Positions 9,212 through 64,000 of a DNA stretch of 64,000 nucleotides are shown piece after piece. This DNA comes from Bacteroidales bacterium (lineage in GTDB: Bacteria; Bacteroidota; Bacteroidia; Bacteroidales; FEN-979). How positions within the stretch are numbered: the stretch's first letter is position 1; each line of letters begins with the position of its first letter. The notes below the pieces were generated by a model. That model did not search any database. It saw nothing but the letters and a program-made list of their open reading frames with translations, and had not been told where the DNA came from. Both the position numbers and the translations under genes were made by a program. The stretch spans positions 3,157,670 to 3,221,669 of the forward strand of contig OY759717.1 of the NCBI GenBank assembly GCA_963662525.1, in the 5' to 3' direction.

Positions 9212-10311
9212 GATTTTTCAGGGTATTCAAGGGTTCTTTTCCTGAAATGATGGGAATCGCCCCATTCACCATATCCAATTTCATCTCCGGCCATGGCAAT
9301 CCTGGCTTCCAGGCAATTCCTGCATTCGGAAGCTTCTTCATCAATACAGGGTTTGTTTTCGTATAACAGGTAGTTATTCCTGTATTTGACCGGTGTAAGG
9401 TTGGGCATAATGACATTGGCCCCTACCATCAGGGCTTTTTCCCTGCCCTGGGGGTCGATCGTTTGCATGGCCGTAGTGGCGGCAATGTTGATATCTTTCA
9501 TCATAATCCTCAGGATGGCCACCATTTTCAATGAAAGTCGGAATCTTTCCTGAAGGGGCATAAGCAGATCTTTGAATTTGTATAAGGGGGTATCCTCATG
9601 TTCGATATATGGCCCCATGCCAACCATGTCAACATCAAAATCCTTAAAAAAAAGCAAATCATCGGCCATGTCAGCAATTGTCTGGAAAGGCAATCCGATC
9701 ATCACACCGGTTCCAACCTGGAATCCCGTTTTTCTTAATGTATAAAGGGCTTCAACCCTTTTTCTGTAATCATGTTTCAGATTAACCGGATGCAGTTTTT
9801 TATATAATTCAGGATTGGATACTTCAATTCTGAGAAGATAACGGTGGGCACCGGCCTCGTACCAGCGGCGGTAGGTTTCTTCGGATTGTTCACCAAGAGA
9901 AAGTGTGACATGTAAATTTCCATTCGTGAATCGGTGAATTTCTTTTAATTGGCGTTCTATATCAGCGATAAACTTTTTTGTCGTCCGTTCCCCAGATTGA
10001 ATTACAATGGAAGCATAATTGTTTTCAAAAGCAAATTTTGCTGCTTCATATACTTCTTCATCCGTAAGCTCATAACGGATATACCGCTTATTTCCTGCCC
10101 GTATTCCGCAGTAGTAGCAATTTTTTTTGCAATAATTGGAATATTCAATGAGCCCCCTGAAGTATACCTTTCTGCCAACGAATTTTGCCTTTGTTTCCTG
10201 GGCGGATTTAAATATATGGAGTGTATCTTCAGCATTTGCTTCAAGTAAAGCAAGGATATCGCGATGAGAAAAAAAATCTTTTTGTAAAATATTTTCAACA
10301 GACGTACTCAT
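9208..10311 (-). CDS. hydE: [FeFe] hydrogenase H-cluster radical SAM maturase HydE
   Basis: Collinear with Thermotoga HydE as I recall it: RGLIEYSNYCKKNCYYCGIR (CX3CX2C), IVIQSGE, VTLSLGE, RYLLR, DMVGMGPYI, ATTAM, GANVIMPN. Its stop overlaps the rlmD start (ATGA). Confidence 0.8.
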   Translation of the reverse strand: MSTSVENILQKDFFSHRDILALLEANAEDTLHIFKSAQETKAKFVGRKVYFRGLIEYSNYCKKNCYYCGIRAGNKRYIRYELTDEEVYEAAKFAFENNYASIVIQSGERTTKKFIADIERQLKEIHRFTNGNLHVTLSLGEQSEETYRRWYEAGAHRYLLRIEVSNPELYKKLHPVNLKHDYRKRVEALYTLRKTGFQVGTGVMIGLPFQTIADMADDLLFFKDFDVDMVGMGPYIEHEDTPLYKFKDLLMPLQERFRLSLKMVAILRIMMKDINIAATTAMQTIDPQGREKALMVGANVIMPNLTPVKYRNNYLLYENKPCIDEEASECRNCLEARIAMAGDEIGYGEWGDSHHFRKRTLEYPEKS

Positions 10312-10384: not shown

Positions 10385-11143
10385 ATGGAAGAATTCATTA
10401 AAACTGTTTTGATCGATGATGATAAATCCAGTATCCTAGCTTTAAAAACATTATTGGAGGGGCACTTCCCGAAAGTCAGAATACTGGGCAGTGGTAATAC
10501 TGTCGCAGAAGGTGTTACCCTGATTGATGCGGTACGCCCTGAACTTGTTTTTTTAGACATCAATATGCCAGATGGCGAAGGGTTTGATGTAATCGAAAAG
10601 GTTGTTTTTCATAATTTTCAGGTAATCTTTATCACTGCCTTCGACAAATATGCCGTCAGGGCATTTGAATTTTCTGCCCTGCATTACCTCGTTAAACCAG
10701 TTACCCTGGATGGCATTAAATCCGCTATCGAAAGGTATAAGGAAACGAAAGATGAAAACATTGATAATAAACTGAGTATACTTAAAGATACCCTAAAAAA
10801 TAAAAACGAGAAGATCATTATACCTTCCACTGACGGACTAAATATTGTTAAACTTGGTGACATCCTGAGACTTGAAGCAGATGATGTTTATACCATGTTT
10901 TATATGACTGATGGTAAGCGTTTCGTCGCATCCAAACCCCTGAATAATTATGAAAAAATTTTGGAGGACTTACCGTTTTCAAGGATTCACAGCAAGCACC
11001 TGATCAACCTCATGTATATCAAGCGTTATATCAAAGGTAAAGGGGGATCGGTAATCATGGAAGACAATACTGAAGTTGAGGTTTCTGTGCGTAAGAAAGC
11101 TGACTTTATTGAAAAGTTGAAAAATTTTGCCCGTTTTGTTTAA
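10385..11143 (+). CDS. LytTR-family response regulator (REC + LytTR DNA-binding domain)
   Basis: REC domain (VLIDDD..VFLDINMPDG) followed by a LytTR-type C-terminus. No cognate kinase is adjacent. Confidence 0.85.
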   Translation: MEEFIKTVLIDDDKSSILALKTLLEGHFPKVRILGSGNTVAEGVTLIDAVRPELVFLDINMPDGEGFDVIEKVVFHNFQVIFITAFDKYAVRAFEFSALHYLVKPVTLDGIKSAIERYKETKDENIDNKLSILKDTLKNKNEKIIIPSTDGLNIVKLGDILRLEADDVYTMFYMTDGKRFVASKPLNNYEKILEDLPFSRIHSKHLINLMYIKRYIKGKGGSVIMEDNTEVEVSVRKKADFIEKLKNFARFV

Positions 11144-50798: not shown

Positions 50799-50810
50799 AG
50801 TATTAACTTT

Positions 50811-51452
50811 CTACTTAAATCGTTCGTCGTTTTTCTTGGCAAAAAATGCCACTTTCTCCAGGGAAGTTATCATATCATATTCTTCCAGGTAAACATAAGG
50901 AGGAACATTGAGTGGTTTTGGGGTATAATTCAGAATTCCTTTAATACCAGACAACACCATGGTTTCAGCGATTTCCGGGGCCTGTTCAGTGGGAACAGTG
51001 ATAATTCCGATGGAAATATTGTTTTGTCTGATGATATCAGCCATCTGGTTCATATGATAACAGGGTACTCCATCATAAACCCGGTTGATTTTTTCAGGGT
51101 TAATATCGAAAGCAGCAATGATGCTGAGTTTCGATCTTTTTCCTTTGAAATAGCTGATCATGGCCTTCCCCAGGTTCCCCAAGCCGACAACAGCTACCCT
51201 TTGTCCTTTTTCTGAATCAATGATCTTACCGATGAGTTCTATCAGTTCCTTGATATCATAACCCTTTCGCAGGTTTCCGGAGTACCCGATCAGCATCAGG
51301 TCCCTTCTCACTTGAACCGGAGTAATATGAAGCATCTGCGCAATTTCATGGGAAAATACATGGGTTTTTTCCTTGGAAAGGATCATTAGCAATGCACGAC
51401 GGTACTGGCTTAACCTTTCAACGGTCTTATGCGGTAAATTCTTTATGAACAT
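50811..51452 (-). CDS. rex: Redox-sensing transcriptional repressor Rex
   Basis: Collinear with B. subtilis Rex as I recall it: winged-helix N-terminus (VERLSQYRR, RRDL..IG..G..GKGY) and Rossmann motif VVGLGNLGKA, GILNYTP. Confidence 0.85.
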   Translation of the reverse strand: MFIKNLPHKTVERLSQYRRALLMILSKEKTHVFSHEIAQMLHITPVQVRRDLMLIGYSGNLRKGYDIKELIELIGKIIDSEKGQRVAVVGLGNLGKAMISYFKGKRSKLSIIAAFDINPEKINRVYDGVPCYHMNQMADIIRQNNISIGIITVPTEQAPEIAETMVLSGIKGILNYTPKPLNVPPYVYLEEYDMITSLEKVAFFAKKNDERFK

Positions 51453-52576
51453 GGTTTGTCGATTGGAAGTCTGAGTTTAAATGTGCTGCCCTGATCCGGA
51501 ATACTGGTCACTTCAATAATTCCTGAATAATTATCGATTAATTTCTTTACGATGGAAAGACCTAATCCGGTTCCGGTTATATTTTTAGTTTTTTCATTTT
51601 TTATTCTGACAAAATCATCGAAAATCTTTTCAAGATCAGCCGCACTCATTCCGATTCCGGAATCGACAACAGTAATTTCGATGCAACCTTCATTTTCCTG
51701 AGCAGTGCAATCCACGGTTCCACCATCCTTATTATATTTAATGGCATTGGAAATAAGATTGTTGAAGATAATTTCCAGTTCATCTGCATCAGCTTTGATC
51801 ATCAACTGTTCAGGTCCATGAAGAGTCATTTTCACTTCCCGTTGAATGGAGTAGGGACGCATGGTGTCCATGGCGGTTCTGATTACCTGGATCAATTCAA
51901 CGTCCGTGATATTTCTTTTATTTTTTCCGGATTCAACTTTTGTGAGGTCTAGGAGATCGAGGATAAGTGTACGCATCCCTTTAATCCTGTCAAGGGAACG
52001 GTCGATCATGACATCATAATCATCCAGGTTGTTTCCCTGCTGTCTTTCCCTGATCATTTTAAGGTAACCTTCGATAGCATTAAGAGGGGCTTTTAACTCA
52101 TGGCTGAGAACCGATAAAAAGGTAAAGCGGATCTGTTTCCCGGTATCCTGCAACTTGGTGGTCATCTTTTTCAGAAAGACCCGTTTGGTGATATTTTCGA
52201 TAGAGGATTTTAATTCCTGGGGAGTAAAGGGTTTCGGGATGAAATCATAGGCTCCATCACTGGTGGCTTTTACTGCCAGTTCCAGGGATGCATAGGAAGT
52301 AATCATGACAACTATAATGTTTTTTTGCTTCTTCTTAATATATTCTAGGACTTCTACTCCCTGGATTCCGGGGAGTTTATTGTCAAGAAGAAGAATATCC
52401 GGAATATCATTTTCAATGATTTCTATCCCGGCTTCACCGGTAGAAGCTTCAAGAACTTCAAAATCGAAGGCTTCATCCATGAAAGGATAATCGACTCTGA
52501 AGTTTCTTAAAATACGGCTTACTCCGCTTCGGATGCCGGGTTCATCATCAACGACGAGTATTTTCAGTGTTGGCAT
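51443..52576 (-). CDS. Receiver-histidine kinase (REC + HisKA + HATPase_c, no other sensor domain)
   Basis: REC (ILVVDDE..LLLDNKLPG..KPF), H-box SHELKAPL, N/G boxes (ISNAIKY, GTGLGLSIV). The last 10 nt overlap the rex start. Confidence 0.85.
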   Translation of the reverse strand: MPTLKILVVDDEPGIRSGVSRILRNFRVDYPFMDEAFDFEVLEASTGEAGIEIIENDIPDILLLDNKLPGIQGVEVLEYIKKKQKNIIVVMITSYASLELAVKATSDGAYDFIPKPFTPQELKSSIENITKRVFLKKMTTKLQDTGKQIRFTFLSVLSHELKAPLNAIEGYLKMIRERQQGNNLDDYDVMIDRSLDRIKGMRTLILDLLDLTKVESGKNKRNITDVELIQVIRTAMDTMRPYSIQREVKMTLHGPEQLMIKADADELEIIFNNLISNAIKYNKDGGTVDCTAQENEGCIEITVVDSGIGMSAADLEKIFDDFVRIKNEKTKNITGTGLGLSIVKKLIDNYSGIIEVTSIPDQGSTFKLRLPIDKPCS

Positions 52577-52597
52577 GGTCAGTATTTCACCCCAAAT

Positions 52598-52996
52598 TTA
52601 GTGGAAAATAAGCAATTTATCAATTTCCGCCTTCAATAGTTCAGAACGTATTCCTTTATCAAGGAAACAATCGGCTTTGATCCATTTCCGGTTGTTCTCA
52701 TCGTTGATATCGAAACTGATACCGGTTTCGGCAGCCACTCCCGTCGCAATAATGATGGGAACATCGGGATATTTCTTTTTCATTTTATAGCATAAGATGA
52801 AGCCGCTGTCCTCATTTTCCATCATCAGGTCAAGAATAGCAAGATCTGGTTTTGTTTTCTCAATCAGTGCTTCTGCCTCTTTCTGACCTTCAGCAGTAAT
52901 GGTTTTAAATCCGAACTTTTCCACTTTCAACTTCAATTGAAAAAGATAATCCTGATCGTCATCCACGATCAGAATAGTTATGTTCCCAGGCTTCAT
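52598..52996 (-). CDS. Stand-alone response-regulator receiver domain protein
   Basis: ILIVDDD..LAILDLMM..PIIIATG; 132 aa with no output domain. Confidence 0.8.
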   Translation of the reverse strand: MKPGNITILIVDDDQDYLFQLKLKVEKFGFKTITAEGQKEAEALIEKTKPDLAILDLMMENEDSGFILCYKMKKKYPDVPIIIATGVAAETGISFDINDENNRKWIKADCFLDKGIRSELLKAEIDKLLIFH

Positions 52997-53003
52997 ATTC
53001 GAT

Positions 53004-53071
53004 TAATAATTAATAATTAATAATTTCTTTTACCAACTCACCAACTCACTAACTCACCAACTCACCAACTC
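53004..53071. repeat. Intercistronic tandem repeats: TAATAAT x3 (53004-53024), then the 8-nt unit ACCAACTC x5 (53032-53071)
   Basis: taataat taataat taataat ... accaactc accaactc actaactc accaactc accaactc. This forms most of the 76-nt spacer between the HydS-kinase stop and the REC start. Confidence 0.9.
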
Positions 53072-53072
53072 T

Positions 53073-55055
53073 TTACTTCCCTCTCGGAATGGTAACCCTG
53101 AACGTTGTTCCTGTTGTTCCTGCAGTTGGATCATTATTGGAGTCAACATGGATCTTGCCTTTGTGCATTTTAACAATTCCATAGATCAAAGCCAATCCAA
53201 GTCCGGTTCCCTTTCCCATTTCTTTCGTTGTAAAAAACGGAGTAAAAATTCTATCCATATTTGCTTTAGATATTCCCGTTCCTGTATCTGTAACCAAAAA
53301 GATTATTTCGCTTTCATTACCCTCTACACTCACTTTCAGGTTTCCGCCTGCAGGCATAGCCTCGATGGCATTTTTTTCCAGGTTAGTCATAACCTGCATC
53401 ATCTGATCAATATCGAGGCATGCCATAGGATCCGCAATATTCGGCTCAAATGTAAAGCTGACATTTTCAGGTTTTATAATAGAATTGAGGCTGTGTGCGG
53501 CAAATTTGACCACATCCGTTTCCGACAGGTTGACCTGGTTTTTTCTGGCAAAGTTCAATAATCCGCTGACGATTTTCTTACAACGGTCAGCTTGCTCCAC
53601 GATGAGTTTGAGATCCTCTTTAACTGCATCGTCTTCCTTTGCCTCGTCCATCAGAATATTACTGTACATAGTGATAACGCCAAGCGGATTATTCAGTTCA
53701 TGGGCAATACCGGCAGAAAGTTGACCCATATGGGCTAGTTTTTCGGACTGTTTCAAGGCGGCTTTTGCTTTGGCCAGCTTCTCATTGGAAATATTCAGGC
53801 TGCTGATGGAATCATGAAGTTTCTCAATGGCGAAAGGAAGACACATTTCTGTTTCAGCAAGACCATTCACGATGGCACTGGCATGATCGACACATGTATC
53901 GTATCCGCAGGCACCACAATTCAGATGATCCTTTGCGGTAAACTTTCCCATGGCATGAAGTGCTTCCAGGACTTCCTCGTTGGTGGGTGGTGCCAGCCGT
54001 CGGTCTTCAGGTGTGAAATGCTGGGATAAGTCAATGTCACTGAATTCATTCATTTCCTTATCCCACAATTCCTTATTGATATTCCTGAGTTTATTATATG
54101 CATATTTTCCAATAGCAGCGCTCCGTGAGAACCTTTTCCCTCCGGGGGATGTTCCGGGTCCCATGATGCAACCTTCACAGCATAATAACATCAGGTTCTT
54201 ATCTTTGATCAACCCGTCTTCATATTCTTTAATAGCTTCTTTGTAATTGATCCGTCCTTCAGCAACAATGACATGTTCTTCAGGGATGGTTTCTGCTCCA
54301 TTGGCGGTATGATATAAACCCCTGCTGATTGGGAAGATCGCTCCTTTTCCTGAATATGGAGGATCAAAATCAGAGGGTTCAACCTCATTAGGATGAATGT
54401 TCATATCCTGGAACATCTCACGAAGTTCAACAAAGGTAAGTACTTCATCAACCTCAAGGGTTTCGGCTTTTTTTGCAAAACATGGGCCAACGAAAACTAT
54501 TTTAGTCTCTTTGCCATATTTTTTACGCAGTATTCTTGTCATGGCAACCATGGGAGATGCAATCGGGGCAAGATTTTCGACGAGTTCGGAGTGGTAATGC
54601 CGGATAAAATAAACAATGGCTGGACAATCAGATGAGATTATCCCAACCCCATCATTTGATTTGATTTTTTTTTCATATTCCCTGGCAACGACATCCGCAC
54701 CAAATGAGACTTCGGTGACAAAATCAAAGCCAAGTCGACGCAGCATCCCGACTAAAACCCGGTGATTTTCTATTTCCGTGAACTCAGCAGGAAAACTTGG
54801 GGCTATACAAACGGCAATTTTTTTATCCGACTGTAAAAGAATTTTAACCTCTTCCGTTGAACGTAATGGATATTTTGCGCCCTGGCTGCAGACTTTAACA
54901 CAATTTCCACAACCAATACAGCGGTCGTTGATAACCTCAGCCTGGCCATTGATAATTTTTATGGCTTTAACCGGACATTCCCTGAGACAGGTATAGCAAA
55001 CCCGGCACCTGTCCTTCAGTGTAAAAACCAATTGCCTGTGATAAGAATGACTCAT
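53073..55055 (-). CDS. HydS-like sensory [FeFe]-hydrogenase domain fused to a histidine kinase
   Basis: N-terminal 2x[4Fe-4S] ferredoxin motifs. H-domain motifs are altered from the catalytic form (SSDCPA, GPCFAKKAE, LCCEGCIMGPG). A Cx2Cx4Cx16C motif follows (CGACGYDTC...EMC), then a coiled coil, H-box AHELNNPL and HATPase GTGLGLALI. The start overlaps the hydA stop (TAATG). Confidence 0.8.
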   Translation of the reverse strand: MSHSYHRQLVFTLKDRCRVCYTCLRECPVKAIKIINGQAEVINDRCIGCGNCVKVCSQGAKYPLRSTEEVKILLQSDKKIAVCIAPSFPAEFTEIENHRVLVGMLRRLGFDFVTEVSFGADVVAREYEKKIKSNDGVGIISSDCPAIVYFIRHYHSELVENLAPIASPMVAMTRILRKKYGKETKIVFVGPCFAKKAETLEVDEVLTFVELREMFQDMNIHPNEVEPSDFDPPYSGKGAIFPISRGLYHTANGAETIPEEHVIVAEGRINYKEAIKEYEDGLIKDKNLMLLCCEGCIMGPGTSPGGKRFSRSAAIGKYAYNKLRNINKELWDKEMNEFSDIDLSQHFTPEDRRLAPPTNEEVLEALHAMGKFTAKDHLNCGACGYDTCVDHASAIVNGLAETEMCLPFAIEKLHDSISSLNISNEKLAKAKAALKQSEKLAHMGQLSAGIAHELNNPLGVITMYSNILMDEAKEDDAVKEDLKLIVEQADRCKKIVSGLLNFARKNQVNLSETDVVKFAAHSLNSIIKPENVSFTFEPNIADPMACLDIDQMMQVMTNLEKNAIEAMPAGGNLKVSVEGNESEIIFLVTDTGTGISKANMDRIFTPFFTTKEMGKGTGLGLALIYGIVKMHKGKIHVDSNNDPTAGTTGTTFRVTIPRGK

Positions 55056-56773
55056 TAACTTGTTTGTTTTATGCGCGAAATATGCAGAAGTTCATGGTTC
55101 CGTTCACTTCCCTGCTTTCCAAGGAATTTTTCATAGATATCAGCCAAAACAGGATTTTTATGAGCAACCTTAATCATTTCTTCTTCATCCATGTCATAAA
55201 GTGCTTTCATGCGACTTTTTAGACTTTTCTCATCGCTTCCGATACGCTGACCGCCACCATTTATACAACCAAAAGGACAAGCCATCACTTCGATCAGATG
55301 AATATCATCTCTTCCTGACTCAATTTCGGAAAGCAAGCTTTTAATATTTGCAAGGCCGCTGACAGCCACGACATTGATAAGCTGTTTCCCGATTTTTATT
55401 TTAGCTTCTTTTTTTGTTTTTAATCCCCGCAAATCCTGAATTTTCAAAGGGCTGAGTTCCTGGCCAGTCATCATGAAATGAAGAGTGCGGAGAATCCCTT
55501 CCGAGGCTCCGCCCGAGATGCCAAAGAGTTTTCCTGCAGAACTGCACATGCTGAAAGCAGTATCGGTGGGTTCCGGCTCTATATTATTGAAATCAATACC
55601 AAGTAAATGAAAAAGTTTGACCAGTTCGCGGGTAGTCAGAACAGCATCCACCGCATGTGTTTTGTCATCTTTCAACAAGCCAATGGAGGCTTCATGTTTT
55701 TTTGCTGTACAGGGCATAACGGAAACGACAAAAACATTTTCAGGAGCATGACCTGCCGAACGGGAAATATAGTTTTTAATCATATTGCCCATCATTTGTT
55801 GAGGCGATCTTGCAGTGGAAAGGTGAGGTAGAAGTTCAGGACGAAGATCTTCAATATATTTCACCCATGAAGGACAACAAGCTGTGAAAAGCGGAAGTTT
55901 TCCATTTTTGTTTAAACGTTCCATAAGTTCAGTAGCCATCTCATTGATGTTTATATCAGCGGAGAAAGCAGTATCAAAGACCTGACGGAAACCAATTTTT
56001 TTCAAGGCTGTCCTGAGCAGGTTGATAATATCTTTGTTAGCCCTGATGCCAAGGTCTTCAGCCATAGAAGCCGGAACTGTCGGGGAAAACTGGATGACAT
56101 TGTGTAAGGATGGATTGTTCAGCGCTTCTATCACTGTATGAATGCTTGATCTCTCGGTAAGTGCGGCAGTTGGACAAACCATAATGCATTGTCCGCATTT
56201 TACGCAGGTCAGCGAATTCAAACCTTTATTATAAGTAGTCCCGATTCTGCTGTTGCTTCCTCTTCCCATAACATCAATGGCGGAGACACCGATCAATTCA
56301 TCACAGACTCTCATACACCGGCCGCATAAAATACACTTTGCGGGATCCCTCTCAATGCTGGTACAGGCTTTATCGATTTTTACCGTTGGGGGTTTAGCAT
56401 GATATTTTCTTTCCCTGATATTGAGTTCAACAGCCAATGACTGGAGTTCACAATTTCCGCTTCTTTCACAATAAAGACAATCATCAGGATGATTGGCCAG
56501 CAATAATTCCACGATGGTTTTACGGGCTTTCATGACCCGTGGAGAATGAGTGCGGATTTTCATCCATTCTTCTACATTATGTGAACAGGCAGGTACAAGT
56601 CCGGGTAAACCATCTACTTCCACAATACACATCCGGCATGCACCGGTAGGAGTAAAGCTGCTCATATTGCATAATGTGGGGACTTTGATTCCGTTACGCT
56701 GTAAAACTGTCAGAATGGTCTCCCCGCGTTTGGCAGATAAAGTTTGATCGTTAATTTCAATATTGAAGAGCAT
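55055..56773 (-). CDS. hydA: [FeFe] hydrogenase catalytic subunit HydA (HydABC type)
   Basis: N-terminal 2Fe-2S and NuoG-like clusters, 2x[4Fe-4S], and H-cluster motifs FTACCPSW, VMPCTAKKHE, EVMACPFGCINGGGQ. Confidence 0.9.
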   Translation of the reverse strand: MLFNIEINDQTLSAKRGETILTVLQRNGIKVPTLCNMSSFTPTGACRMCIVEVDGLPGLVPACSHNVEEWMKIRTHSPRVMKARKTIVELLLANHPDDCLYCERSGNCELQSLAVELNIRERKYHAKPPTVKIDKACTSIERDPAKCILCGRCMRVCDELIGVSAIDVMGRGSNSRIGTTYNKGLNSLTCVKCGQCIMVCPTAALTERSSIHTVIEALNNPSLHNVIQFSPTVPASMAEDLGIRANKDIINLLRTALKKIGFRQVFDTAFSADININEMATELMERLNKNGKLPLFTACCPSWVKYIEDLRPELLPHLSTARSPQQMMGNMIKNYISRSAGHAPENVFVVSVMPCTAKKHEASIGLLKDDKTHAVDAVLTTRELVKLFHLLGIDFNNIEPEPTDTAFSMCSSAGKLFGISGGASEGILRTLHFMMTGQELSPLKIQDLRGLKTKKEAKIKIGKQLINVVAVSGLANIKSLLSEIESGRDDIHLIEVMACPFGCINGGGQRIGSDEKSLKSRMKALYDMDEEEMIKVAHKNPVLADIYEKFLGKQGSERNHELLHISRIKQTS

Positions 56774-56781
56774 GCTGGTGT

Positions 56782-58731
56782 TTATTTGATATATATAGCA
56801 TTGAATTTACACAGGTCGAAACAGATGCCGCAGCCTGTACACTTTGCCTCCACAATAAAATGAGGCATCTTAATGCTTCCGATGATGGCATTTTCCGGAC
56901 ACTTTTTCTGACAGACATTACATCCGTTACAGGCATCCGGTTCGATATAGAAGGTTCTCAGGTCATGGCAGACACCTGCTACACAACGGCGATCGAAAAT
57001 ATGCTCTTCAAATTCTTCCCGAAACCATTTTAATGAACTAAGGACCGGGTTAGGGGCGTTTTGTCCAAGTCCACATAAGGAAGTATCCCGGATAACTTCA
57101 GCTAGATTCTCTAGCTGTACGACTCCTTTGAAACGTTCCAGCGTTTCGTGGGTGAATTCTTCTTTTGGTCGGCGGGTAATGGCATCGAGAATATCCAGCA
57201 TACGCTTTGTCCCTTCTCGGCATGGGATGCACTTGCCACAACTTTCTTTCTGTAAAAATTCCATAAAATATTTTGACAGGCTAACCATGCAGACTGATTC
57301 ATCAAGAACAATTAAGCCTCCAGGGCCAATGGTTGCACCTATTTCCTGAAGTGATTCGTACCCCATCTCTGTTTCCATATCCTTAGCGGGAATACAAACA
57401 CCCGATGGACCGCCCAGCTGAACTGCTTTTAATGGCTTGCCATTCCGGATACCTCCGGCAATTTTAAAAACGATATCTGAGAGGGTGATCCCCATGGATA
57501 TTTCAATAAATCCGGAATGAACAGCCATCCCTGAGACTGATAAAATTTTCGTTCCTTTACTTTCTTTGTTTCCAATCGCTTTAAACCATGATGGTCCATT
57601 CTCCAGGATTAACGGGATATTGGCAAGTGTTTCAACATTGTTGACAATGGTTGGCTGACCCATGAATCCGGATTCTGCCGGGTAAGGCGGTTTTGATTTG
57701 GGTATGCCGCGCCTGCCTTCCAGGCTGGCAATCAGGGCTGTTTCTTCACCGCAAACAAAGGCACCTGCCCCTTGACGGAGTTGGATCGAAAGATTAAATC
57801 CACTTCCGAATATATTCTCTCCCAGAAATCCATAATCCTTTGCCTGAAGAATGGCTCTTTCTAGGATCCCTAGTGGGTGGGTGTGAATGGATCGAACATA
57901 AATAAAGGCTGTACTTGCACCTATTGCATATGCGGCAATTGCAATTCCTTCCAATACCCGGTGAGGATCAGATTCAATGATTGCCCGGTCCATAAAGGCT
58001 CCGGGATCACTTTCATCGGCATTGCAAATCAAATATTTCTTGTCACTGGCAGTACCGAGGGCTACCTTCCATTTCCTGCCGGTATTGTACCCTCCACCTG
58101 CTCTTCCCCGGAGCTCACTCTGCTCAACTATCTCGCAGACCTTGTCGGCAGTGTAATTCAAGACTGTTTTGTACAGGGAACGATAACCTCCCCAGGCCAG
58201 ATAATCATTAATATTATCGGGCGAAATAATACCCGCATACCTCAGAATATTCCTATGTTGCAAGGCAAAGTAGGGGAGCTGGTCTATATAAGGGAGGTTG
58301 GCCCAATCCTCATGATGTTTGCATCTGTATTGTCCGAGTACGGAATCTTCCGGAATAGCCCGGTGAAATATGGAATGAAGCAGGTCTTCCACTTTATCAG
58401 CGGTTGCATGATGAAATGAAACCCTTGACTTTCCTGGTAGTTGCACATCAAGTAATGGCTCAGCTGAACAGAATCCGGTACATCCGACCGATATCAGTTC
58501 GGCCTCAATTTTATTATCCGACAGAAAATTTTCAACGGCTTCCCGGGTCTGTAATGCGCCAGATATTACACCACATGTAGCGGTTCCGATATAAATGATC
58601 GGCCGCTCAATCTTCTCTCGACGTAATAACATCAAACGGTCTTCAGTGTGTTTATCTAAAATGCCTGAGTAATTCTTCAGAACTTTATCTGTCAGAAATC
58701 CTTTGATATCAGAGGTGCTATTTGAGGGCAT
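56782..58731 (-). CDS. hydB: NuoF-like NAD(P)H-binding flavoprotein subunit HydB
   Basis: Thioredoxin-like N-terminus, GRAGGGYNTGRKW FMN/NADH site, CGKCIPCREG cluster, C-terminal 2x[4Fe-4S] ferredoxin. Confidence 0.9.
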   Translation of the reverse strand: MPSNSTSDIKGFLTDKVLKNYSGILDKHTEDRLMLLRREKIERPIIYIGTATCGVISGALQTREAVENFLSDNKIEAELISVGCTGFCSAEPLLDVQLPGKSRVSFHHATADKVEDLLHSIFHRAIPEDSVLGQYRCKHHEDWANLPYIDQLPYFALQHRNILRYAGIISPDNINDYLAWGGYRSLYKTVLNYTADKVCEIVEQSELRGRAGGGYNTGRKWKVALGTASDKKYLICNADESDPGAFMDRAIIESDPHRVLEGIAIAAYAIGASTAFIYVRSIHTHPLGILERAILQAKDYGFLGENIFGSGFNLSIQLRQGAGAFVCGEETALIASLEGRRGIPKSKPPYPAESGFMGQPTIVNNVETLANIPLILENGPSWFKAIGNKESKGTKILSVSGMAVHSGFIEISMGITLSDIVFKIAGGIRNGKPLKAVQLGGPSGVCIPAKDMETEMGYESLQEIGATIGPGGLIVLDESVCMVSLSKYFMEFLQKESCGKCIPCREGTKRMLDILDAITRRPKEEFTHETLERFKGVVQLENLAEVIRDTSLCGLGQNAPNPVLSSLKWFREEFEEHIFDRRCVAGVCHDLRTFYIEPDACNGCNVCQKKCPENAIIGSIKMPHFIVEAKCTGCGICFDLCKFNAIYIK

Positions 58732-58732
58732 G

Positions 58733-59197
58733 TTATACCGTTTTTTCTTTGATTGACCGGATGATTTTTGTGAGTTTTTCGGTATTCACCCGTGTATAAT
58801 ATTGTTCATTTACCTTGATAACAGGCCCGTGATCACAGGCTCCCATACAACTCACCACCTCGATGCTAAACTTTTTGTCACGGCTTGTATTCCCAGCTTT
58901 TACCTTTAAATGTTTTTCAAGTTCCTTCAGTAATGCAGTTGAGCCATGCAAATGACAGGCTGTCCCTTGGCAAACCTGGACATGATATCGCCCGGGCCGT
59001 CCATGGCGGAATTGATCATAAAAAGCAGCTACGGAATAAATTTTATTCAAAGGAAGACCCAGGTAAGCAGATACCATTTCCAAGGTGTCATCCGTCAAAA
59101 ACCCTTGTTCCTTCTGTATGTCCTGTAATATCGGTAGCAAACCCTCATGTTTGTTCGGGGGATACTTTTCCAGGATCTGGCTAGTTGTTATCTCCAT
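58733..59197 (-). CDS. hydC: NuoE-like [2Fe-2S] subunit HydC
   Basis: VCQGTACHLHG ... VSCMGACDHGPV are thioredoxin-like 2Fe-2S ligands. Confidence 0.85.
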   Translation of the reverse strand: MEITTSQILEKYPPNKHEGLLPILQDIQKEQGFLTDDTLEMVSAYLGLPLNKIYSVAAFYDQFRHGRPGRYHVQVCQGTACHLHGSTALLKELEKHLKVKAGNTSRDKKFSIEVVSCMGACDHGPVIKVNEQYYTRVNTEKLTKIIRSIKEKTV

Positions 59198-59223
59198 AAT
59201 ATCTAAGGAATCAATTATTCTTA

Positions 59224-59231
59224 CAAATATA
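59224..59231 (-). promoter_or_regulatory. Bacteroidota -7 promoter box TATATTTG (minus strand) for hydCBA
   Basis: The plus strand reads caaatata, 27 nt upstream of the hydC ATG. Confidence 0.45.
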
Positions 59232-59278
59232 CTAAAAGAATTTTTATTTTGAATGTTTTACCTGTGAAAAAATTAGCA

Positions 59279-59306
59279 TTGTGAATAAATAAACAAATAT
59301 TTGTTT
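59279..59306. promoter_or_regulatory. Candidate operator: Rex-box-like TTGTGAATAAATAAACAA (59279-59296) overlapping the perfect 16-bp palindrome AAACAAATATTTGTTT (59291-59306)
   Basis: Read directly. The left half-site matches TTGTGAA exactly, and the right half matches TTCACAA at 5 of 7 positions. The palindrome is perfect. Confidence 0.35.
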
Positions 59307-59361
59307 GCATTTCTTTATGAAAAAATATTTCATTATCTATACAACTCTGCTTACTAATTAG

Positions 59362-59369
59362 TATTTTTG
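59362..59369 (+). promoter_or_regulatory. Bacteroidota -7 promoter box TATTTTTG for the PAS-linked hydS paralog
   Basis: Exact TAnnTTTG match 11 nt before ATG 59380. The second in-frame ATG at 59386 may therefore be the real start. Confidence 0.4.
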
Positions 59370-59379
59370 GCCCATAGCC

Positions 59380-61254
59380 ATGACTATGGAAAGCATACCC
59401 CTTCTCCGGATTACTCACGACCTCTGTATCAAATGCTATTCCTGTGTGCGCATATGTCCGGTAAAGGCCATCCGGGTAGATGTTAAAACAGAACTTCCTT
59501 CCATTATACCAGAACGATGTATCGGTTGCGGCAGTTGCTACAGAGCCTGTTCACCTTCAGCCATTTTCTATCGTAGCTCCATTGAAGATACCAAAGCATT
59601 ACTTGCTTCAGGAAAACCCATTGCAGCCATTTGTGATCCCACTATTTCCGGCGAATTTCGCGATATTACAGATTACCGCAAATTTGTTGAAATGATCAAA
59701 CAACTTGGTTTTGCTTATGTCAGTGAAGTTTCATTCGGCGTTGATCTTGTTGCAAGAAAGTACAAAGAGCTTTTCGATAATTTCAAAGGAAAATTCCATA
59801 TCAGTGCCAATTGTCCTGCATTAGTTTTCTTTATTGAAAAATTTTATCCTCACTTGATTCCCAACCTCGTTCCTGTCGTTTCCCCCATGGCCGCTACCGC
59901 AAAAGTGTTGCGACACAAGTATGGAGAGGATCTGGGAATTGTTTTTATCGGCCCTTGCATAGCGACAAAAAATGAAGCCCTGACCTATTCCGGTGATGCA
60001 AAAATAGATTCCGTCCTGACTTTTGTTGAACTTAGGGAATTATTTACTCAACTTAATATCCGGGAAAGCCAGGTTGAATTTGCCGAATTTGATCCTCCAC
60101 TTGGTTATAAAGGTTCCTTGTATCCGATTAGTAACGGGATTATTCAGTCGGTGGATATCAACGAAGATTTGCTCACAGGGAACGTTATTACTACGGAGGG
60201 AAAAAATAATATGGTCGATGCCGTGAAAGAATTTGATTCCCGTATCGACATGATCAAACGACATTTTAATATTTTTTATGATGAGGGCTGCCTGATGGGA
60301 CCAGGAACCTCTCCCGCAGGAGAGAAATTCCTGCGCATGACGCTTGTGACAGATTATGCCAATAAACGTCTTGGATCCTTTGATAAAAAAAACTGGAATG
60401 CCGATATTGCTTCTTTCGCTAGTCTCGATCTTTCACGGCAATTTATTCCTGACGACCAGAGGTTACAGGTACCCTCAGATGAAAAGATTGAGGAAGTTTT
60501 AAAGATGATCAACAGGGAAGGTCAACTTCACAATGAAATTGGTTGCGAAGCTTGTGGGTACACCAATTGCAGAGAACTGGCTGTTGCTATTGCCCAGGGA
60601 CTCGCAACTACCGAAATGTGTCATGTTTTCAGTGGCCGGAACCGGCAAGAGTATATTCAGACTTTGCGATCAACCAACGAAAAACTGGCCAAAACAAAAG
60701 CTGCCCTGAAAGAGTCGGAAGAAAAAGCGAAACAAGAGCAGGAAACTCAGAAAGAATCATCGGAAATCATCTCTTCGATGTTGCAGAAACTGGTTTCGGG
60801 AGTTGTCATCGTGGATGAACATCTGAGAATTATTCAGTCAAATAAAGCCTTTATCCGTATCCTAGGGGAGGAAGCTTCCCTGGTGGATGAAGTGATCCCC
60901 GGTTTGGTGGGAGCTAACCTGAAATCCTTACTTCCGGTTCCTTTTTATAAAATGTTCTCCTATGTGCTTTCTTCCGATGAAAATATTGAAAATAAAGATG
61001 TGAATTACCAGGAAAATAAATTAAGCGTTTCCATATTTCCTATCCGGAGTCAGAAATTTGTTGGTGCAATACTCAGGGATATGTATGTCCCTGAGGTCCG
61101 AAAGGAGCAAATTATCAACCGGCTTACTGAAGTGATTGATGAAAACTTCGATATGGTTCAGAAAATCGCTTACCTGCTTGGTGAAGGAGCTGCAAAAACT
61201 GAACAGATGCTCAATTCTATCATTGAATCTCACAGAAATCCTCAAAAAAAATAA
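59380..61254 (+). CDS. hydS: HydS-like sensory [FeFe]-hydrogenase paralog with C-terminal PAS domain
   Basis: Paralogous to 53073-55055: 2x[4Fe-4S] N-terminus, SANCPAL, GPCIATKNE, FYDEGCLMGPG, Cx2Cx4Cx16C (CEACGYTNC...EMC), coiled coil, and a PAS-like C-terminus (VVIVDEHLRIIQSNKAF...). Confidence 0.8.
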   Translation: MTMESIPLLRITHDLCIKCYSCVRICPVKAIRVDVKTELPSIIPERCIGCGSCYRACSPSAIFYRSSIEDTKALLASGKPIAAICDPTISGEFRDITDYRKFVEMIKQLGFAYVSEVSFGVDLVARKYKELFDNFKGKFHISANCPALVFFIEKFYPHLIPNLVPVVSPMAATAKVLRHKYGEDLGIVFIGPCIATKNEALTYSGDAKIDSVLTFVELRELFTQLNIRESQVEFAEFDPPLGYKGSLYPISNGIIQSVDINEDLLTGNVITTEGKNNMVDAVKEFDSRIDMIKRHFNIFYDEGCLMGPGTSPAGEKFLRMTLVTDYANKRLGSFDKKNWNADIASFASLDLSRQFIPDDQRLQVPSDEKIEEVLKMINREGQLHNEIGCEACGYTNCRELAVAIAQGLATTEMCHVFSGRNRQEYIQTLRSTNEKLAKTKAALKESEEKAKQEQETQKESSEIISSMLQKLVSGVVIVDEHLRIIQSNKAFIRILGEEASLVDEVIPGLVGANLKSLLPVPFYKMFSYVLSSDENIENKDVNYQENKLSVSIFPIRSQKFVGAILRDMYVPEVRKEQIINRLTEVIDENFDMVQKIAYLLGEGAAKTEQMLNSIIESHRNPQKK

Positions 61255-61272
61255 TTTACTGTTGAACCCCTG

Positions 61273-61310
61273 CCTGACGGCAGTCAGGATTTACGATTCT
61301 AGATTTTTTT
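61273..61310 (+). terminator. Weak hairpin followed by an ATTTACG-family repeat fragment and a T-run
   Basis: cctgac-ggca-gtcagg (6-bp stem), then gatttacgattctagattttttt. The T-run is not adjacent to the stem, so terminator function is doubtful. Confidence 0.25.
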
Positions 61311-61316
61311 GCTCCT

Positions 61317-62501
61317 ATGGATGAAAAGTTTTTTATCGAAGTGACCTGCCAACAGAAAAATCATGGTGAAGCAAGGATATGCGGCGATGTCTTTATTTCA
61401 CGTAGGATCAAGGAAGAAGGAAGGATCATTGTCGTTCTGTCAGATGGTATGGGGCATGGGATAAAAGCCAATATGCTGGGAACTCTTACGGCCACTCTGG
61501 CTGTTAATTTCACTCAGGAACATAAAAGTGTCCAGAAGATTACTGAGATAATCATGAATACTTTGCCGGTCGACAGTGTGAAACATATGAACTATTCCAC
61601 TTTTACTATTGTTGAGATAGATGTGGAAGGAGATGTACGTATTCTTGAATATGAGAATCCAAGAACACTTATTTTGAGCGGGGCCCGCCTGCATGAACCT
61701 CTTTGGAATTGCGTAGTTCTGGAAGGGGATAGACATGCCGGGAAGGAGGTTTTAACCTGTACATTCCGTCCCCAGAAGGAAGACCGCATCGTTTTTTGTT
61801 CTGATGGTGTTACTCAATCAGGTCTTGGAAGTGACAAATATCCTACCGGTTGGGGAATGATCAACCTGGAAAAATATGTTCTGGATACCATCCATGAAGA
61901 ACATGATATTTCTGCTGTAAAGCTGGCTACACAGGTTGTCAATAAAGCCAACCTGAATGATAATTTTCACCCCCTGGATGATATCAGCTGTGGGGTTATT
62001 TATTTCAGGGAACCTCGCAAATTGATGATATGTTCAGGTCCTCCCCAGAATCCGGAAAATGATATATTCTTTTGTGGTCTGTTGAAGCAATTCGAAGGAA
62101 AAAAAATAATTTCCGGGGCTACCACCGCAGATATGGTTGCGCGTGAATGGAATGAAACAATAAAGGATAGCAATGTGATACTTGACCCGGAATTGCCGCC
62201 TGTTTCGCATATGAATGGCATAGAGCTGATTACAGAAGGTATCCTTACCCTGAGCAAGGTCAGTGAATTATTGAAAAAATATAACCAGAATTACAAGCTG
62301 GGAAAAGGACCTGCTGATGAGATCGTTAAATTCATCTTGGAGTGTGATGAGATTCATTTTCTTGTCGGAACAAATATCAATACAGCGCATCAGGATCCAA
62401 CCTTGCCTGTCGAACTGGAACTCCGTCGCACCGTCGTCCACCGCATTACACGTACCCTGGAAGAAAAATTCCTGAAAGAAGTTACGATGAGGTTTTATTA
62501 A
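61317..62501 (+). CDS. PP2C/SpoIIE-family protein phosphatase with an uncharacterised C-terminal domain
   Basis: GDVF...VVLSDGMGHGIKANMLG...FCSDGVTQ are SpoIIE-type metal-binding motifs. I cannot assign the ~160-aa C-terminal extension to a family. Confidence 0.75.
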   Translation: MDEKFFIEVTCQQKNHGEARICGDVFISRRIKEEGRIIVVLSDGMGHGIKANMLGTLTATLAVNFTQEHKSVQKITEIIMNTLPVDSVKHMNYSTFTIVEIDVEGDVRILEYENPRTLILSGARLHEPLWNCVVLEGDRHAGKEVLTCTFRPQKEDRIVFCSDGVTQSGLGSDKYPTGWGMINLEKYVLDTIHEEHDISAVKLATQVVNKANLNDNFHPLDDISCGVIYFREPRKLMICSGPPQNPENDIFFCGLLKQFEGKKIISGATTADMVAREWNETIKDSNVILDPELPPVSHMNGIELITEGILTLSKVSELLKKYNQNYKLGKGPADEIVKFILECDEIHFLVGTNINTAHQDPTLPVELELRRTVVHRITRTLEEKFLKEVTMRFY

Positions 62502-63659: not shown

Positions 63660-64000
63660 CTAATTGCTGTACTCAGCAACAATATCCTGAACACCCTCTG
63701 GGGATACACGTCCATAAACTTTTTCGCCAACCAATACAACAGGTGCCAGGCCACAGGCACCAACACAACGAAGGCAGCTCAAGGAGAATTTTCCGTCAGA
63801 GGTAGTTTCGCCAACCTGGATCTTAAGCTGCCGCTTGAATTCTTCCAGTACCTTTTCAGCTCCCCGCACATAACAGGCCGTACCCAGGCAGATTGAAATG
63901 GGATGCTCTCCTTTTGGAGTCATGGTGAAAAATGAGTAAAAGGTAACCACCCCATAAACATGAGCAACAGAAACCTTTAATTCATTGGCGATAACTTCCT
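63660..64000 (-). CDS. Second NuoE/HydC-like [2Fe-2S] subunit (5'-truncated by window edge)
   Basis: The frame is open to base 64000 (..EVIANELKVSVAHVYGVVTFYSFF..). ICLGTACYVRG ... CLRCVGACGLAPV are 2Fe-2S ligands. Confidence 0.75.
   Translation of the reverse strand, partial: EVIANELKVSVAHVYGVVTFYSFFTMTPKGEHPISICLGTACYVRGAEKVLEEFKRQLKIQVGETTSDGKFSLSCLRCVGACGLAPVVLVGEKVYGRVSPEGVQDIVAEYSN

What the first reader, a model, noticed from the sequence alone, without database searches (positions are those of the whole stretch)
53073..55055. HydS-like H-domain fused directly to HisKA/HATPase and translationally coupled to hydA
The 660-aa protein has two N-terminal ferredoxin-type motifs and an H-domain with modified signature motifs. 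L1 reads SSDCPA where the neighbouring catalytic HydA reads TACCPSW, so the first Cys of the CC pair is lost. L2 reads GPCFAKKAE versus MPCTAKKHE. L3 reads LCCEGCIMGPG versus MACPFGCINGGGQ. I counted the extra Cx2Cx4Cx16C motif reported for Thermotoga HydS directly (CGAC-GYDT-C-16 residues-C). A coiled coil, H-box AHELNNPL and an ATPase domain follow, with no PAS or TM segment in between. Its ATG overlaps the hydA stop (TAATG). The sensor should therefore be made in fixed proportion to the enzyme whose product or substrate it presumably senses.
Basis: partly seen in the sequence, partly recalled or inferred. Interest (0 to 1): 0.7.

Follow-up and report, generated by a model that had tools for sequence, protein, structure and literature searches.

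The report
Hydrogenase-like sensor fused to histidine kinase
Next to a hydrogen-producing enzyme sits a gene for a hydrogenase look-alike joined directly to a signalling kinase, most likely a cellular hydrogen gauge; the type is widespread and already catalogued from genomes, but none has been tested in the lab.

Summary
ORF 53073..55055 (-) encodes a 660-aa protein with two ferredoxin motifs, an [FeFe]-hydrogenase H-domain, a Cx2Cx4Cx16C cluster motif, a helical linker, HisKA and HATPase_c. It has no PAS and no TM segment, and its ATG overlaps the hydA stop (TAATG).

Two corrections apply. The C299 position holds Asp143, the one substitution that keeps proton transfer in CpI. The family-invariant L3 cysteine is C293, giving Cx2C spacing, not C292.

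This is not a new kind. HydDB lists histidine-kinase-linked Group C [FeFe]-hydrogenases. A 2024 paper describes this gene layout in Bacteroidota, and a 2022 paper notes a kinase-fused Group C3 enzyme.

I found at least 120 close homologues. About 31 diverse 50%-identity clusters share the architecture. The 80 best genome loci, from 14 or more phyla, mostly carry a conserved cassette hydC-hydB-hydA-hydS(HK)-REC-REC/HK, with Rex or hydE/hydG alongside.

One feature appears unreported. The distance from the last cluster cysteine to the phospho-histidine is heptad-quantised (33/40/47/54 residues), which implies a rigid coiled coil.

The start/stop overlap is conserved only in the closest clade. 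"Fixed stoichiometry" is untested.

Most likely function: an H2- or redox-responsive kinase controlling the bifurcating hydrogenase. It is a new member of a known, uncharacterised kind and a good experimental target.

The parts
53073..55055 (-). hydS(HK): 660-aa sensory-type [FeFe]-hydrogenase domain fused to a histidine kinase
   Evidence: ORF; Pfam architecture; 100% identical protein in public collections
54876..55016 (-). N-terminal 2x[4Fe-4S] ferredoxin domain (residues 14-60; C17/20/23/27 and C46/49/52/56)
   Evidence: Pfam Fer4 families; motif positions
54153..54824 (-). H-domain (residues 78-301). L1 is SSDCPA at 54618-54635 (D143 = CpI C299, C144 = C300). L2 is GPCFAKKAE at 54462-54488 (G190 = M353, C192 = C355). 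L3 is LCCEGCIMGPG at 54153-54185 (C293 = C499 by profile alignment, C296 = C503).
   Evidence: Pfam PF02906 1e-44; CpI and TmHydA alignments; hhalign against 60 HydA sequences; invariance in 120 homologues
53841..53918 (-). C-terminal Cx2Cx4Cx16C [4Fe-4S] motif (C380, C383, C388, C405)
   Evidence: Regex; Pfam FeS PF04060; invariant in 32 diverse representatives
53703..53840 (-). Helical signalling linker (residues 406-451) from the last cluster cysteine to the phospho-histidine; 47 residues from C405 to H452
   Evidence: AF2 helices 406-419, 424-442 and 448-471; linker lengths 33/40/47/54 across the family
53538..53729 (-). HisKA / DHp domain (residues 443-506); H-box AHELNNPL at 53682-53705, phospho-acceptor H452
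   Evidence: Pfam; ZraS alignment; H452 invariant
53082..53414 (-). HATPase_c catalytic domain (residues 548-658) with N box N558/N562, G1 D590-G594, F box F604 and G2 G614-G620
   Evidence: Pfam; motif positions; invariance
55053..55057 (-). TAATG junction: the hydA stop and the hydS start share one base
   Evidence: Sequence
55055..56773 (-). hydA: catalytic subunit of the bifurcating-type [FeFe]-hydrogenase (canonical TACCPSW / MPCTAKKHE / MACPFGC)
   Evidence: Pfam and NCBIfam FeFe_hydrog_A6 at 666 bits, below the 765-bit cutoff
56782..58731 (-). hydB: NuoF-like flavoprotein subunit
   Evidence: Pfam Complex1_51K, NADH_4Fe-4S, Fer4
58733..59197 (-). hydC: NuoE-like [2Fe-2S] subunit
   Evidence: Pfam 2Fe-2S_thioredx
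52598..52996 (-). Stand-alone receiver (REC) protein, 132 aa, the likely phospho-acceptor of HydS(HK)
   Evidence: Pfam Response_reg; follows hydS(HK) in most related loci
51443..52576 (-). REC-HisKA-HATPase hybrid kinase, a conserved second relay component
   Evidence: Pfam; conserved downstream in most of 80 loci
50811..51452 (-). rex: NADH/NAD+-sensing repressor homologue; its start overlaps the end of the hybrid kinase gene by 10 nt
   Evidence: Pfam Put_DNA-bind_N + CoA_binding; Rex lies downstream (Bacteroidota) or upstream (other phyla) of the cassette
59279..59296 (.). Candidate Rex operator TTGTGAATAAATAAACAA in the hydC / hydS(PAS) divergent intergenic region
   Evidence: Best match in the window, 2 mismatches; similar boxes at cassette promoters in related loci
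59380..61254 (+). Second, divergent sensory paralogue HydS(PAS), 624 aa
   Evidence: Pfam Fe_hyd_lg_C, FeS, PAS_9; alignment A1
61317..62501 (+). SpoIIE/PP2C-type phosphatase partner of HydS(PAS)
   Evidence: Pfam SpoIIE

Best explanation
HydS(HK) is a soluble, cytoplasmic, dimeric sensor histidine kinase. Its input module is a sensory-type (Group C) [FeFe]-hydrogenase.

Shown from sequence:
- It keeps every cysteine needed for two N-terminal [4Fe-4S] clusters, the H-cluster (C144, C192, C293, C296) and a C-terminal [4Fe-4S] cluster.
- It lacks the fast proton path and the two methionines of catalytic enzymes.
- The last ligand of the C-terminal cluster (C405) sits at the start of a continuous coiled coil. 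That coil's length to the phospho-histidine is fixed in heptad steps.
- The kinase core is intact.
- The gene lies in a widely conserved cassette hydC-hydB-hydA-hydS(HK)-REC-REC/HK, with Rex or the maturase genes hydE/hydG alongside.

Inferred:
- HydEFG install the [2Fe] subcluster.
- Slow H2 binding or oxidation at the H-cluster changes the redox or conformational state of the H-domain and C-terminal cluster module.
- This rotates or pistons the coiled coil and switches the DHp between kinase and phosphatase states.
- Phosphate flows to the adjacent stand-alone REC and the REC-kinase hybrid.
- The relay, together with NADH-sensing Rex, tunes expression of the bifurcating hydrogenase operon to H2 partial pressure.

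The sign of the response and the final DNA-binding output are unknown.
For: - Architecture and motifs.
- H-domain homology to CpI, TmHydA and TkHydA by sequence and by fold.
- Profile alignment of ligands.
- All cluster cysteines, H452 and the N/G1/F/G2 boxes are invariant in 120 homologues. They are nearly so in 32 representatives at 29-49% identity, all of which are Fe_hyd_lg_C + FeS + HisKA + HATPase_c without PAS.
- Sensory signature: C299->D, M353->G, M497->L, S319->A, E279 deleted. This matches what is reported for TmHydS and TamHydS (PMC10055695, PMC8163306).
- Linker length is 47 residues in 120/120 close homologues and 77/80 genome loci. It is 33/40/47/54 in 25 of 28 diverse representatives. 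Ten of the 13 non-47 lengths differ by exact multiples of 7.
- Synteny: hydA lies directly upstream in 61/80 loci, and REC and the REC/HK hybrid lie downstream in most loci.
- Maturase genes follow the cassette in other phyla. HydE is present in this window.
- Rex boxes sit at cassette promoters.
Against: - No Group C or D [FeFe]-hydrogenase has been shown to signal H2.
- In TamHydS the C-terminal cluster is not reduced by H2, and the authors doubt a redox relay through it (PMC13104023).
- A few family members have lost an H-cluster ligand (P0136, P0152, P0169), so the module can evolve away from H2 chemistry.
- No DNA-binding response regulator is encoded in the cassette.
- The L3 spacing (Cx2C) differs from every characterised hydrogenase.
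- The AF2 model is only moderate (pLDDT 68.8) and is poor at the ferredoxin domain, the L3 loop and the DHp.
- Nothing here measures cofactor content or kinase activity.
Confidence: 0.6

Rival explanations
1. It is a redox or electron-flux sensor rather than a free-H2 sensor. Its ferredoxin-like N-terminus exchanges electrons with ferredoxin or with HydABC, and the Fe-S cluster redox state, not H2 binding, sets kinase activity.
For: - Tight, conserved linkage to hydA.
- Start/stop overlap in the close clade.
- Co-encoded Rex, another redox sensor.
- Some relatives have lost H-cluster ligands but keep the Fe-S motifs and the kinase.
- The TamHydS C-terminal cluster is not reduced by H2.
Against: The four H-cluster cysteines, K195 (= K358) and E198 (= E361) are invariant in 120 close homologues. 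That is hard to explain if the [2Fe] site were dispensable. The characterised relatives TmHydS and TamHydS bind a genuine H-cluster.
Confidence: 0.2
2. It is a fourth subunit of the bifurcating hydrogenase ('BfuT'). It is physically docked on HydABC, reports or controls the enzyme's state post-translationally, and is produced with it by translational coupling.
For: - The 2024 survey names it the T subunit of BfuABC (PMC11406978).
- The TAATG/ATGA overlap with hydA occurs in the closest clade.
- The position directly after hydA is conserved.
Against: - No complex data exist.
- Solved HydABC structures contain no such subunit.
- The overlap is absent in 54 of 61 junctions.
- In 9 loci a REC gene sits between hydA and hydS.
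- An intact kinase with adjacent receivers points to diffusible phospho-signalling.
Confidence: 0.1
3. It is a degenerate pseudo-hydrogenase (Nar1/NARF-like). It binds only [4Fe-4S] clusters and senses O2, NO or oxidative damage.
For: - The non-canonical Cx2C L3 spacing.
- Loss of M353 and M497.
- The authors of PMC11406978 could hardly find P1-P3 motifs in some Group C1 proteins.
Against: - The same methionine losses occur in TmHydS and TamHydS, which bind active H-clusters.
- Asp143 sits where a proton relay is needed.
- hydE and hydG genes are attached to the cassette in many phyla.
Confidence: 0.1

Closest known systems
Kinase-fused Group C [FeFe]-hydrogenases described from genomes: 'BfuT' sub-type V of Hydrogenedentota / Caldithrix abyssi (WP_006928132.1) and the Bacteroidota clusters of Perlabentimonas, Tenuifilum and Williamwhitmania (PMC11406978); Ca. 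Lernaella Group C3 with a kinase domain (PMC9324843)
   Same: Same domain fusion and same position directly downstream of the A3-type hydA. The Bacteroidota layout, with a second sensory gene upstream of hydC, is the layout of this window. A Calditrichota locus (L043) is 52% identical with the same synteny.
   Different: Those papers are gene-content surveys. They report no residue-level analysis, linker analysis or biochemistry. This window's protein belongs to a Bacteroidales sub-clade with Asp at the C299 position and an extra Cys292.
Thermotoga maritima HydS (Group C, M2f), the characterised sensory [FeFe]-hydrogenase
   Same: Two N-terminal [4Fe-4S] motifs, an H-domain with all ligands, C299 not Cys, M353->Gly, M497 not Met, a C-terminal Cx2Cx4Cx16C motif, and a gene beside a group A hydrogenase.
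   Different: TmHydS ends in a PAS domain and has no kinase; here the kinase is fused directly. TmHydS has Ala at position 299 and Ser at 497; here these are Asp and Leu. PAS-type representatives of about 565-600 aa keep the canonical CxxGC L3, whereas the kinase-fused clade has CxGC. The TmHydS sequence itself was not aligned here.
Thermoanaerobacter mathranii HydS (Group D, M2e)
   Same: Same Fe-S complement, no PAS, Leu at the M497 position, and a kinase-like ATPase gene as neighbour.
   Different: TamHydS has no fused output domain and has Ser rather than Gly at M353.
[NiFe] regulatory hydrogenase HoxBC with histidine kinase HoxJ (Ralstonia eutropha; HydDB [NiFe] group 2b)
   Same: Same logic: a slow hydrogenase coupled to a histidine kinase to control hydrogenase genes (PMC5037454 table; general knowledge).
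   Different: The catalytic module is unrelated ([NiFe]). Sensor and kinase are separate polypeptides joined through a PAS-like domain. There is no homology to the input domain here.
NtrB/AtoS/ZraS-type HisKA kinases
   Same: The DHp and CA domains align over about 215 residues with ZraS (E 2e-32) and with AtoS/ZraS NCBIfam models.
   Different: Those kinases use periplasmic or PAS inputs. All scores here fall far below the equivalog cut-offs, so this protein is not an orthologue.

Membership tests
Sensory (Group C) [FeFe]-hydrogenase / HydS-like | H-domain homologous to the [FeFe]-hydrogenase large subunit | tested here: met
   PF02906 E 1e-44; phmmer hits to TmHydA and CpI at 1e-24 to 1e-17; Foldseek probability 1.0 to HydA and CpI
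Sensory (Group C) [FeFe]-hydrogenase / HydS-like | Four cysteine ligands of the H-cluster (CpI C300, C355, C499, C503) | tested here: met
   C144, C192, C293 (or C292) and C296; invariant in 120 homologues; register from hhalign. The spacing of the last pair is Cx2C, not Cx3C.
Sensory (Group C) [FeFe]-hydrogenase / HydS-like | Loss of the canonical proton path and of M353/M497 | tested here: met
   C299->D143, S319->A163, E279 in a 4-residue deletion, M353->G190, M497->L291. Caveat: Asp at position 299 is proton-competent in CpI.
Sensory (Group C) [FeFe]-hydrogenase / HydS-like | Two N-terminal [4Fe-4S] motifs plus the C-terminal Cx2Cx4Cx16C motif | tested here: met
   the C-terminal motif is invariant in 32 diverse representatives
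Sensory (Group C) [FeFe]-hydrogenase / HydS-like | C-terminal PAS domain (M2f sub-class, TmHydS type) | tested here: not met
   No PAS hit at E <= 0.01 in this protein nor in any of 32 representatives; a kinase replaces it. It is therefore not an M2f/TmHydS-type member, only a member of the wider sensory clade.
Sensory (Group C) [FeFe]-hydrogenase / HydS-like | Genomic linkage to a group A hydrogenase | tested here: met
   hydA lies directly upstream here and in 61/80 related loci
Sensory (Group C) [FeFe]-hydrogenase / HydS-like | Binds a [2Fe] subcluster and reacts with H2 | not testable with these tools
   Needs maturation plus FTIR/EPR. Only indirect support: HydE in the window and hydE/hydG attached to the cassette elsewhere.
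HydDB subgroup (C1 histidine-kinase-linked vs C3 phosphatase-linked) | Placement by the HydDB k-NN classifier or by phylogeny | not tested
   HydDB is not available here. PMC11406978 reports kinase-fused orthologues (Caldithrix WP_006928132.1) as C3. HydDB defines C1 as histidine-kinase-linked.
Class I (HisKA) sensor histidine kinase | H-box with phospho-acceptor His in a DHp helix hairpin | tested here: met
   HisKA E 1.6e-14; AHELNNPL with H452 invariant; helices 448-471 and 477-505
Class I (HisKA) sensor histidine kinase | N, G1, F and G2 boxes of the ATP-binding domain | tested here: met
   N558/N562, DTGTG 590-594, FTPF 604-607, GKGTGLG 614-620; invariant
Class I (HisKA) sensor histidine kinase | Adjacent cognate receiver domain | tested here: met
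   REC at 52598..52996 and a REC-kinase hybrid at 51443..52576; conserved in most related loci. Cognacy itself is not tested.
Class I (HisKA) sensor histidine kinase | ATP-dependent autophosphorylation | not testable with these tools
   Biochemical assay required

The most novel reading that the evidence does not exclude
In the kinase-fused clade, the last cysteine ligand of the C-terminal [4Fe-4S] cluster caps a register-locked coiled coil running straight into the phospho-histidine. The clade also has a remodelled H-cluster pocket (Cx2C L3 and, in this Bacteroidales branch, a natural C299D plus an extra Cys at position 498). On this reading the protein would not be a free-H2 gauge. It would be a stoichiometric, docked reporter of the bifurcating HydABC enzyme, a metallocofactor-gated kinase that reads the enzyme's electron or H2 flux directly. 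Together with a partly degenerate PAS/phosphatase paralogue and Rex, it would form a three-input controller.
Probability: 0.15. Interest if true: 0.7.

Novelty: new member of a known kind. Interest (0 to 1): 0.42.

Why it matters
Whether Group C and D [FeFe]-hydrogenases really sense H2, and how they pass the signal on, is still open. The two enzymes studied so far (TmHydS and TamHydS) have no measurable output. The latest work says that finding their interaction partners is critical for clarifying the signalling mechanism (PMC13104023).

A protein with the kinase fused in cis and its receivers encoded next door offers a direct read-out: autophosphorylation and phosphotransfer with and without H2. 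The heptad-locked linker gives a specific, mutable hypothesis for how a metallocluster domain drives a kinase.

The conserved cassette across 14 or more phyla suggests this is a major way anaerobes set fermentative H2 production. That bears on gut, rumen, digester and sediment hydrogen budgets.

Tried and rejected
1. A search for a solved sensory-hydrogenase structure or a TmHydS chain in the PDB found none. Only group A enzymes and kinase cores matched.
2. NCBIfam has no curated family for the fusion. All hits fall far below their cut-offs.
3. The sigma-70 promoter and intrinsic-terminator scans of 50500-62600 gave no more hits than shuffles, so they are uninformative. Bacteroidota promoters are not covered by that tool.
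4. The Rex-box scan at 3 mismatches or fewer is at chance level for the whole window (6 found against 6.5 expected). Only the single 2-mismatch site in the hydC upstream region, plus comparative placement in other loci, makes it a lead. It is not a finding.
The closest named records are Bacteroidales MAGs.
It was addressed by family and profile alignments instead.
7. I considered that the fusion might be an assembly or frameshift artefact. I rejected this because the identical gene occurs on several independent contigs and in hundreds of genomes.
8. The literature search for any autophosphorylation assay of an [FeFe] sensory hydrogenase found nothing relevant.
Full report
**1. Observation**

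The ORF at 53073..55055 on the minus strand encodes 660 aa. The minus strand reads GTTAATGAGT at the junction. The TAA of hydA (55055..56773) and the ATG of this gene therefore share one base.

Pfam finds these domains:
- a 4Fe-4S dicluster domain, residues 14-60
- Fe_hyd_lg_C, residues 78-300 (E 1e-44)
- the small 'FeS' domain PF04060, residues 378-407
- HisKA, residues 443-506
- HATPase_c, residues 548-658

There is no PAS hit. The maximum 19-residue hydropathy is 1.15, so there is no membrane segment. That includes Cx2Cx4Cx16C (C380, C383, C388, C405) and the H-box AHELNNPL (H452). The neighbouring HydA carries the canonical TACCPSW, MPCTAKKHE and MACPFGCINGGGQ.

**2. Careful alignment**

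Against CpI and T. maritima HydA the L1 and L2 cysteines align unambiguously: C144 = C300 and C192 = C355. The residue at the C299 position is Asp143. Fittingly, the best-scoring CpI entry is the engineered C299D variant 6glz.

The rest of the canonical proton path is mostly not conserved:
- E279 falls in a four-residue deletion
- S319 is Ala163
- R286 is Lys130
- E282 is Glu126 here (retained) but variable in the family
- M353 is Gly190

For L3, pairwise methods put C292 on C499. An alignment of 129 representatives, and a profile-profile comparison of 77 sensors against 60 HydA sequences, put the family-invariant C293 on C499. This needs a one-residue deletion before G295-C296. The likely ligand set is therefore C144, C192, C293 and C296, with Cx2C spacing. 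L291 then occupies the M497 position and C292 the A498 position.

Representatives of about 565-600 aa, without the kinase, keep the canonical CxxGC.

In 120 homologues of 73-86% identity, all of the following are invariant:
- D143, C144, G190, C192, L290-C293, G295 and C296
- the four C-terminal cysteines
- H452, N562, D590/G592/G594 and G616/G618/G620

In the wider family the 299 position is Pro, Thr, Ala or Ser. Asp is thus a Bacteroidales-branch trait. It matters because C299D is the only substitution at that site that leaves CpI and HydA1 substantially active, at 30-80% (PMC6226526).

**3. How common it is**

The protein is 100% identical to a sequence already in public collections. It occurs on several independent contigs with the same neighbours.

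The 120 best clusters are all full-length and have the same architecture. Sources label them Bacteroidota or Bacteroidales, or 'iron only hydrogenase large subunit-like protein / signal transduction histidine kinase'.

A search of 50%-identity representatives returned about 31 further clusters matching residues ~9-658 in one stretch, at 29-49% identity. All 32 aligned members carry Fe_hyd_lg_C + FeS + HisKA + HATPase_c and none carries PAS.

In one-genome-per-species data the 80 best loci match nearly full length. They come from these groups:
- Bacteroidota, Hydrogenedentota, Planctomycetota, Calditrichota
- Myxococcota, Desulfobacterota, Acidobacteriota, Verrucomicrobiota
- Fibrobacterota, Melainabacteria, Thermoleophilia, Elusimicrobiota
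- Spirochaetota and Chloroflexota

**4. Context**

Around the gene lie:
- hydC, 58733..59197
- hydB, 56782..58731
- hydA
- hydS(HK)
- a stand-alone receiver, 52598..52996
- a REC-HisKA-HATPase hybrid, 51443..52576
- rex, 50811..51452

All of these are on the minus strand. Diverging from hydC are a second sensory paralogue with a PAS domain (59380..61254) and a SpoIIE/PP2C phosphatase (61317..62501).

Across the 80 loci, hydA is the immediate upstream gene in 61. In 9 more a REC gene sits between hydA and hydS. REC and the hybrid kinase follow in most loci. Rex lies downstream in Bacteroidota and upstream in other phyla.

Where Rex is not downstream, the next gene is often hydG-like or hydE-like. 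This window itself encodes HydE at 9208..10311 (TIGR03956, 357 bits against a cut-off of 255).

A Rex-type box with two mismatches lies at 59279-59296 in the hydC upstream region. Comparable boxes sit at the cassette promoter in many related loci, including a perfect one in L056. This is a lead, not a demonstration.

**5. Translational coupling**

The window has TAATG. The five closest relatives examined (75-86% identity) have an ATGA overlap.

Family-wide, only 7 of 61 hydA-hydS junctions overlap. A further 34 have spacers of 0-30 nt and 20 have longer spacers. Co-transcription and tight linkage are conserved. Start/stop overlap is a clade-level feature. Nothing here measures protein ratios, so 'fixed proportion' remains an inference.

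**6. Mechanistic clue**

The number of residues from the last cluster cysteine to the phospho-histidine is distributed as follows:
- 47 in 120/120 close homologues
- 47 in 77/80 genome loci, and 40 in the other three
- among diverse representatives, 33, 40, 47 or 54 in 25 of 28
- of the 13 non-47 lengths, 10 differ from 47 by exact multiples of seven

The AF2 model is moderate (pLDDT 68.8). It predicts helices from residue 406 through the DHp.

Heptad-quantised length is the signature of a continuous coiled-coil signalling helix. The C-terminal cluster domain and the DHp are therefore mechanically coupled in a fixed register. This fits a model in which a change at the H-domain and C-terminal cluster module is transmitted by helix rotation or piston motion.

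It does not say whether the trigger is redox or conformational. Work on TamHydS argues against H2-driven reduction of that cluster (PMC13104023).

**7. Comparison with what is known**

- HydDB defines Group C [FeFe]-hydrogenases as putative sensors. Subgroup C1 is 'histidine kinase-linked' and C3 is 'phosphatase-linked' (PMC5037454).
- A Group C3 enzyme with a fused kinase domain beside a Group A3 hydrogenase was noted in Ca. Lernaella (PMC9324843).
- The 2024 Hydrogenedentota survey describes 'BfuT' with a histidine-kinase domain downstream of bfuA (best HydDB hit Caldithrix WP_006928132.1). It states that Bacteroidota such as Perlabentimonas, Tenuifilum and Williamwhitmania carry a second bfuT upstream of bfuC. 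That is the layout seen in this window. The authors called its significance unclear (PMC11406978).
- The biochemical literature treats Group C as PAS-linked (TmHydS) and Group D as lacking an output (TamHydS).
- I found no paper assaying kinase activity of any such protein.
- No sensory [FeFe]-hydrogenase structure is in the PDB.

The protein fails the PAS criterion of the M2f/TmHydS sub-class. It meets every sequence criterion of the wider sensory clade and of class I histidine kinases.

**8. Verdict**

The finding is real and correctly read in outline. It is a new member of an already catalogued, very widespread, but biochemically untouched kind.

My analysis adds five things:
- the ligand register and the Cx2C variant
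- the natural Asp at position 299
- the heptad-locked linker
- the conserved multi-phylum cassette with REC, the REC-kinase hybrid, Rex and the maturases
- the observation that this organism's second (PAS/phosphatase) sensor has lost the invariant L3 cysteine

Interest is moderate. A specialist would not be surprised that it exists. It is, however, arguably the best available handle for testing H2 sensing by [FeFe] enzymes.

Noticed in passing
window 59380..61254 (+), L3 at 60274..60306: The divergent PAS-type paralogue reads FYDEGCLMGPG. The family-invariant L3 cysteine (the C499 equivalent) is Asp. L004 and L005 also have Asp, L026 has Asn, and the other Bacteroidales orthologues examined keep Cys (FFCHGC). 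This organism's phosphatase-linked sensor may therefore have a compromised or Asp-ligated H-cluster site, while the kinase-linked sensor is intact.
   Followed up: partly
window 59279..59296: The Rex-operator-like palindrome TTGTGAATAAATAAACAA lies 82 nt upstream of the hydC start. It is the only match with 2 or fewer mismatches in 64 kb. Similar boxes lie at the promoter of the cassette in many related loci (for example a perfect box in L056, and sites in L007, L014 and L028).
   Followed up: partly
window 53002..53071: The 76-nt spacer between hydS(HK) and the REC gene is almost entirely two short tandem arrays: (ATTAATA) x3.4 and (ACCAACTC) x5. Their function is unknown. They could be a slippage-prone or regulatory spacer.
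   Followed up: no
window 9208..10311 (-) and 10385..11143 (+): An H-cluster maturase HydE gene (TIGR03956, above its cut-off) lies about 43 kb from the hydrogenase cluster. It diverges from a LytTR-type DNA-binding response regulator. That regulator is a candidate, untested, for the missing transcriptional output.
   Followed up: no
window 63660..63950 (-) and L001:1-1396: A second NuoE-like gene, and beyond the window edge a second HydA-like gene (590 aa, 39% identical to HydA), show that another [FeFe]-hydrogenase operon lies directly beside this cluster.
   Followed up: no
related loci L009-L015, L043-L065, L073, L077: Outside the Rex-downstream Bacteroidales, the cassette hydCBA-hydS(HK)-REC-REC/HK is commonly followed by hydG-like (~475 aa) or hydE-like (~350 aa) radical-SAM maturase genes.
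   Followed up: partly
representatives P0136, P0152, P0169: A few family members have lost H-cluster ligands. P0136 has C300->Gly, P0152 has C503->Gly, and P0169 lacks C300, C355 and both L3 cysteines. All three keep the C-terminal Cx2Cx4Cx16C motif used to select them, and P0136 and P0152 also keep the kinase domains (P0169 was not checked). The module can evolve into a non-hydrogenase sensor.
   Followed up: no
window 51443..51452: The end of the REC-kinase hybrid gene and the rex start overlap by 10 nt, and hydC/hydB are separated by 1 nt. The whole hydC-to-rex stretch looks like one tightly packed transcription unit.
   Followed up: no
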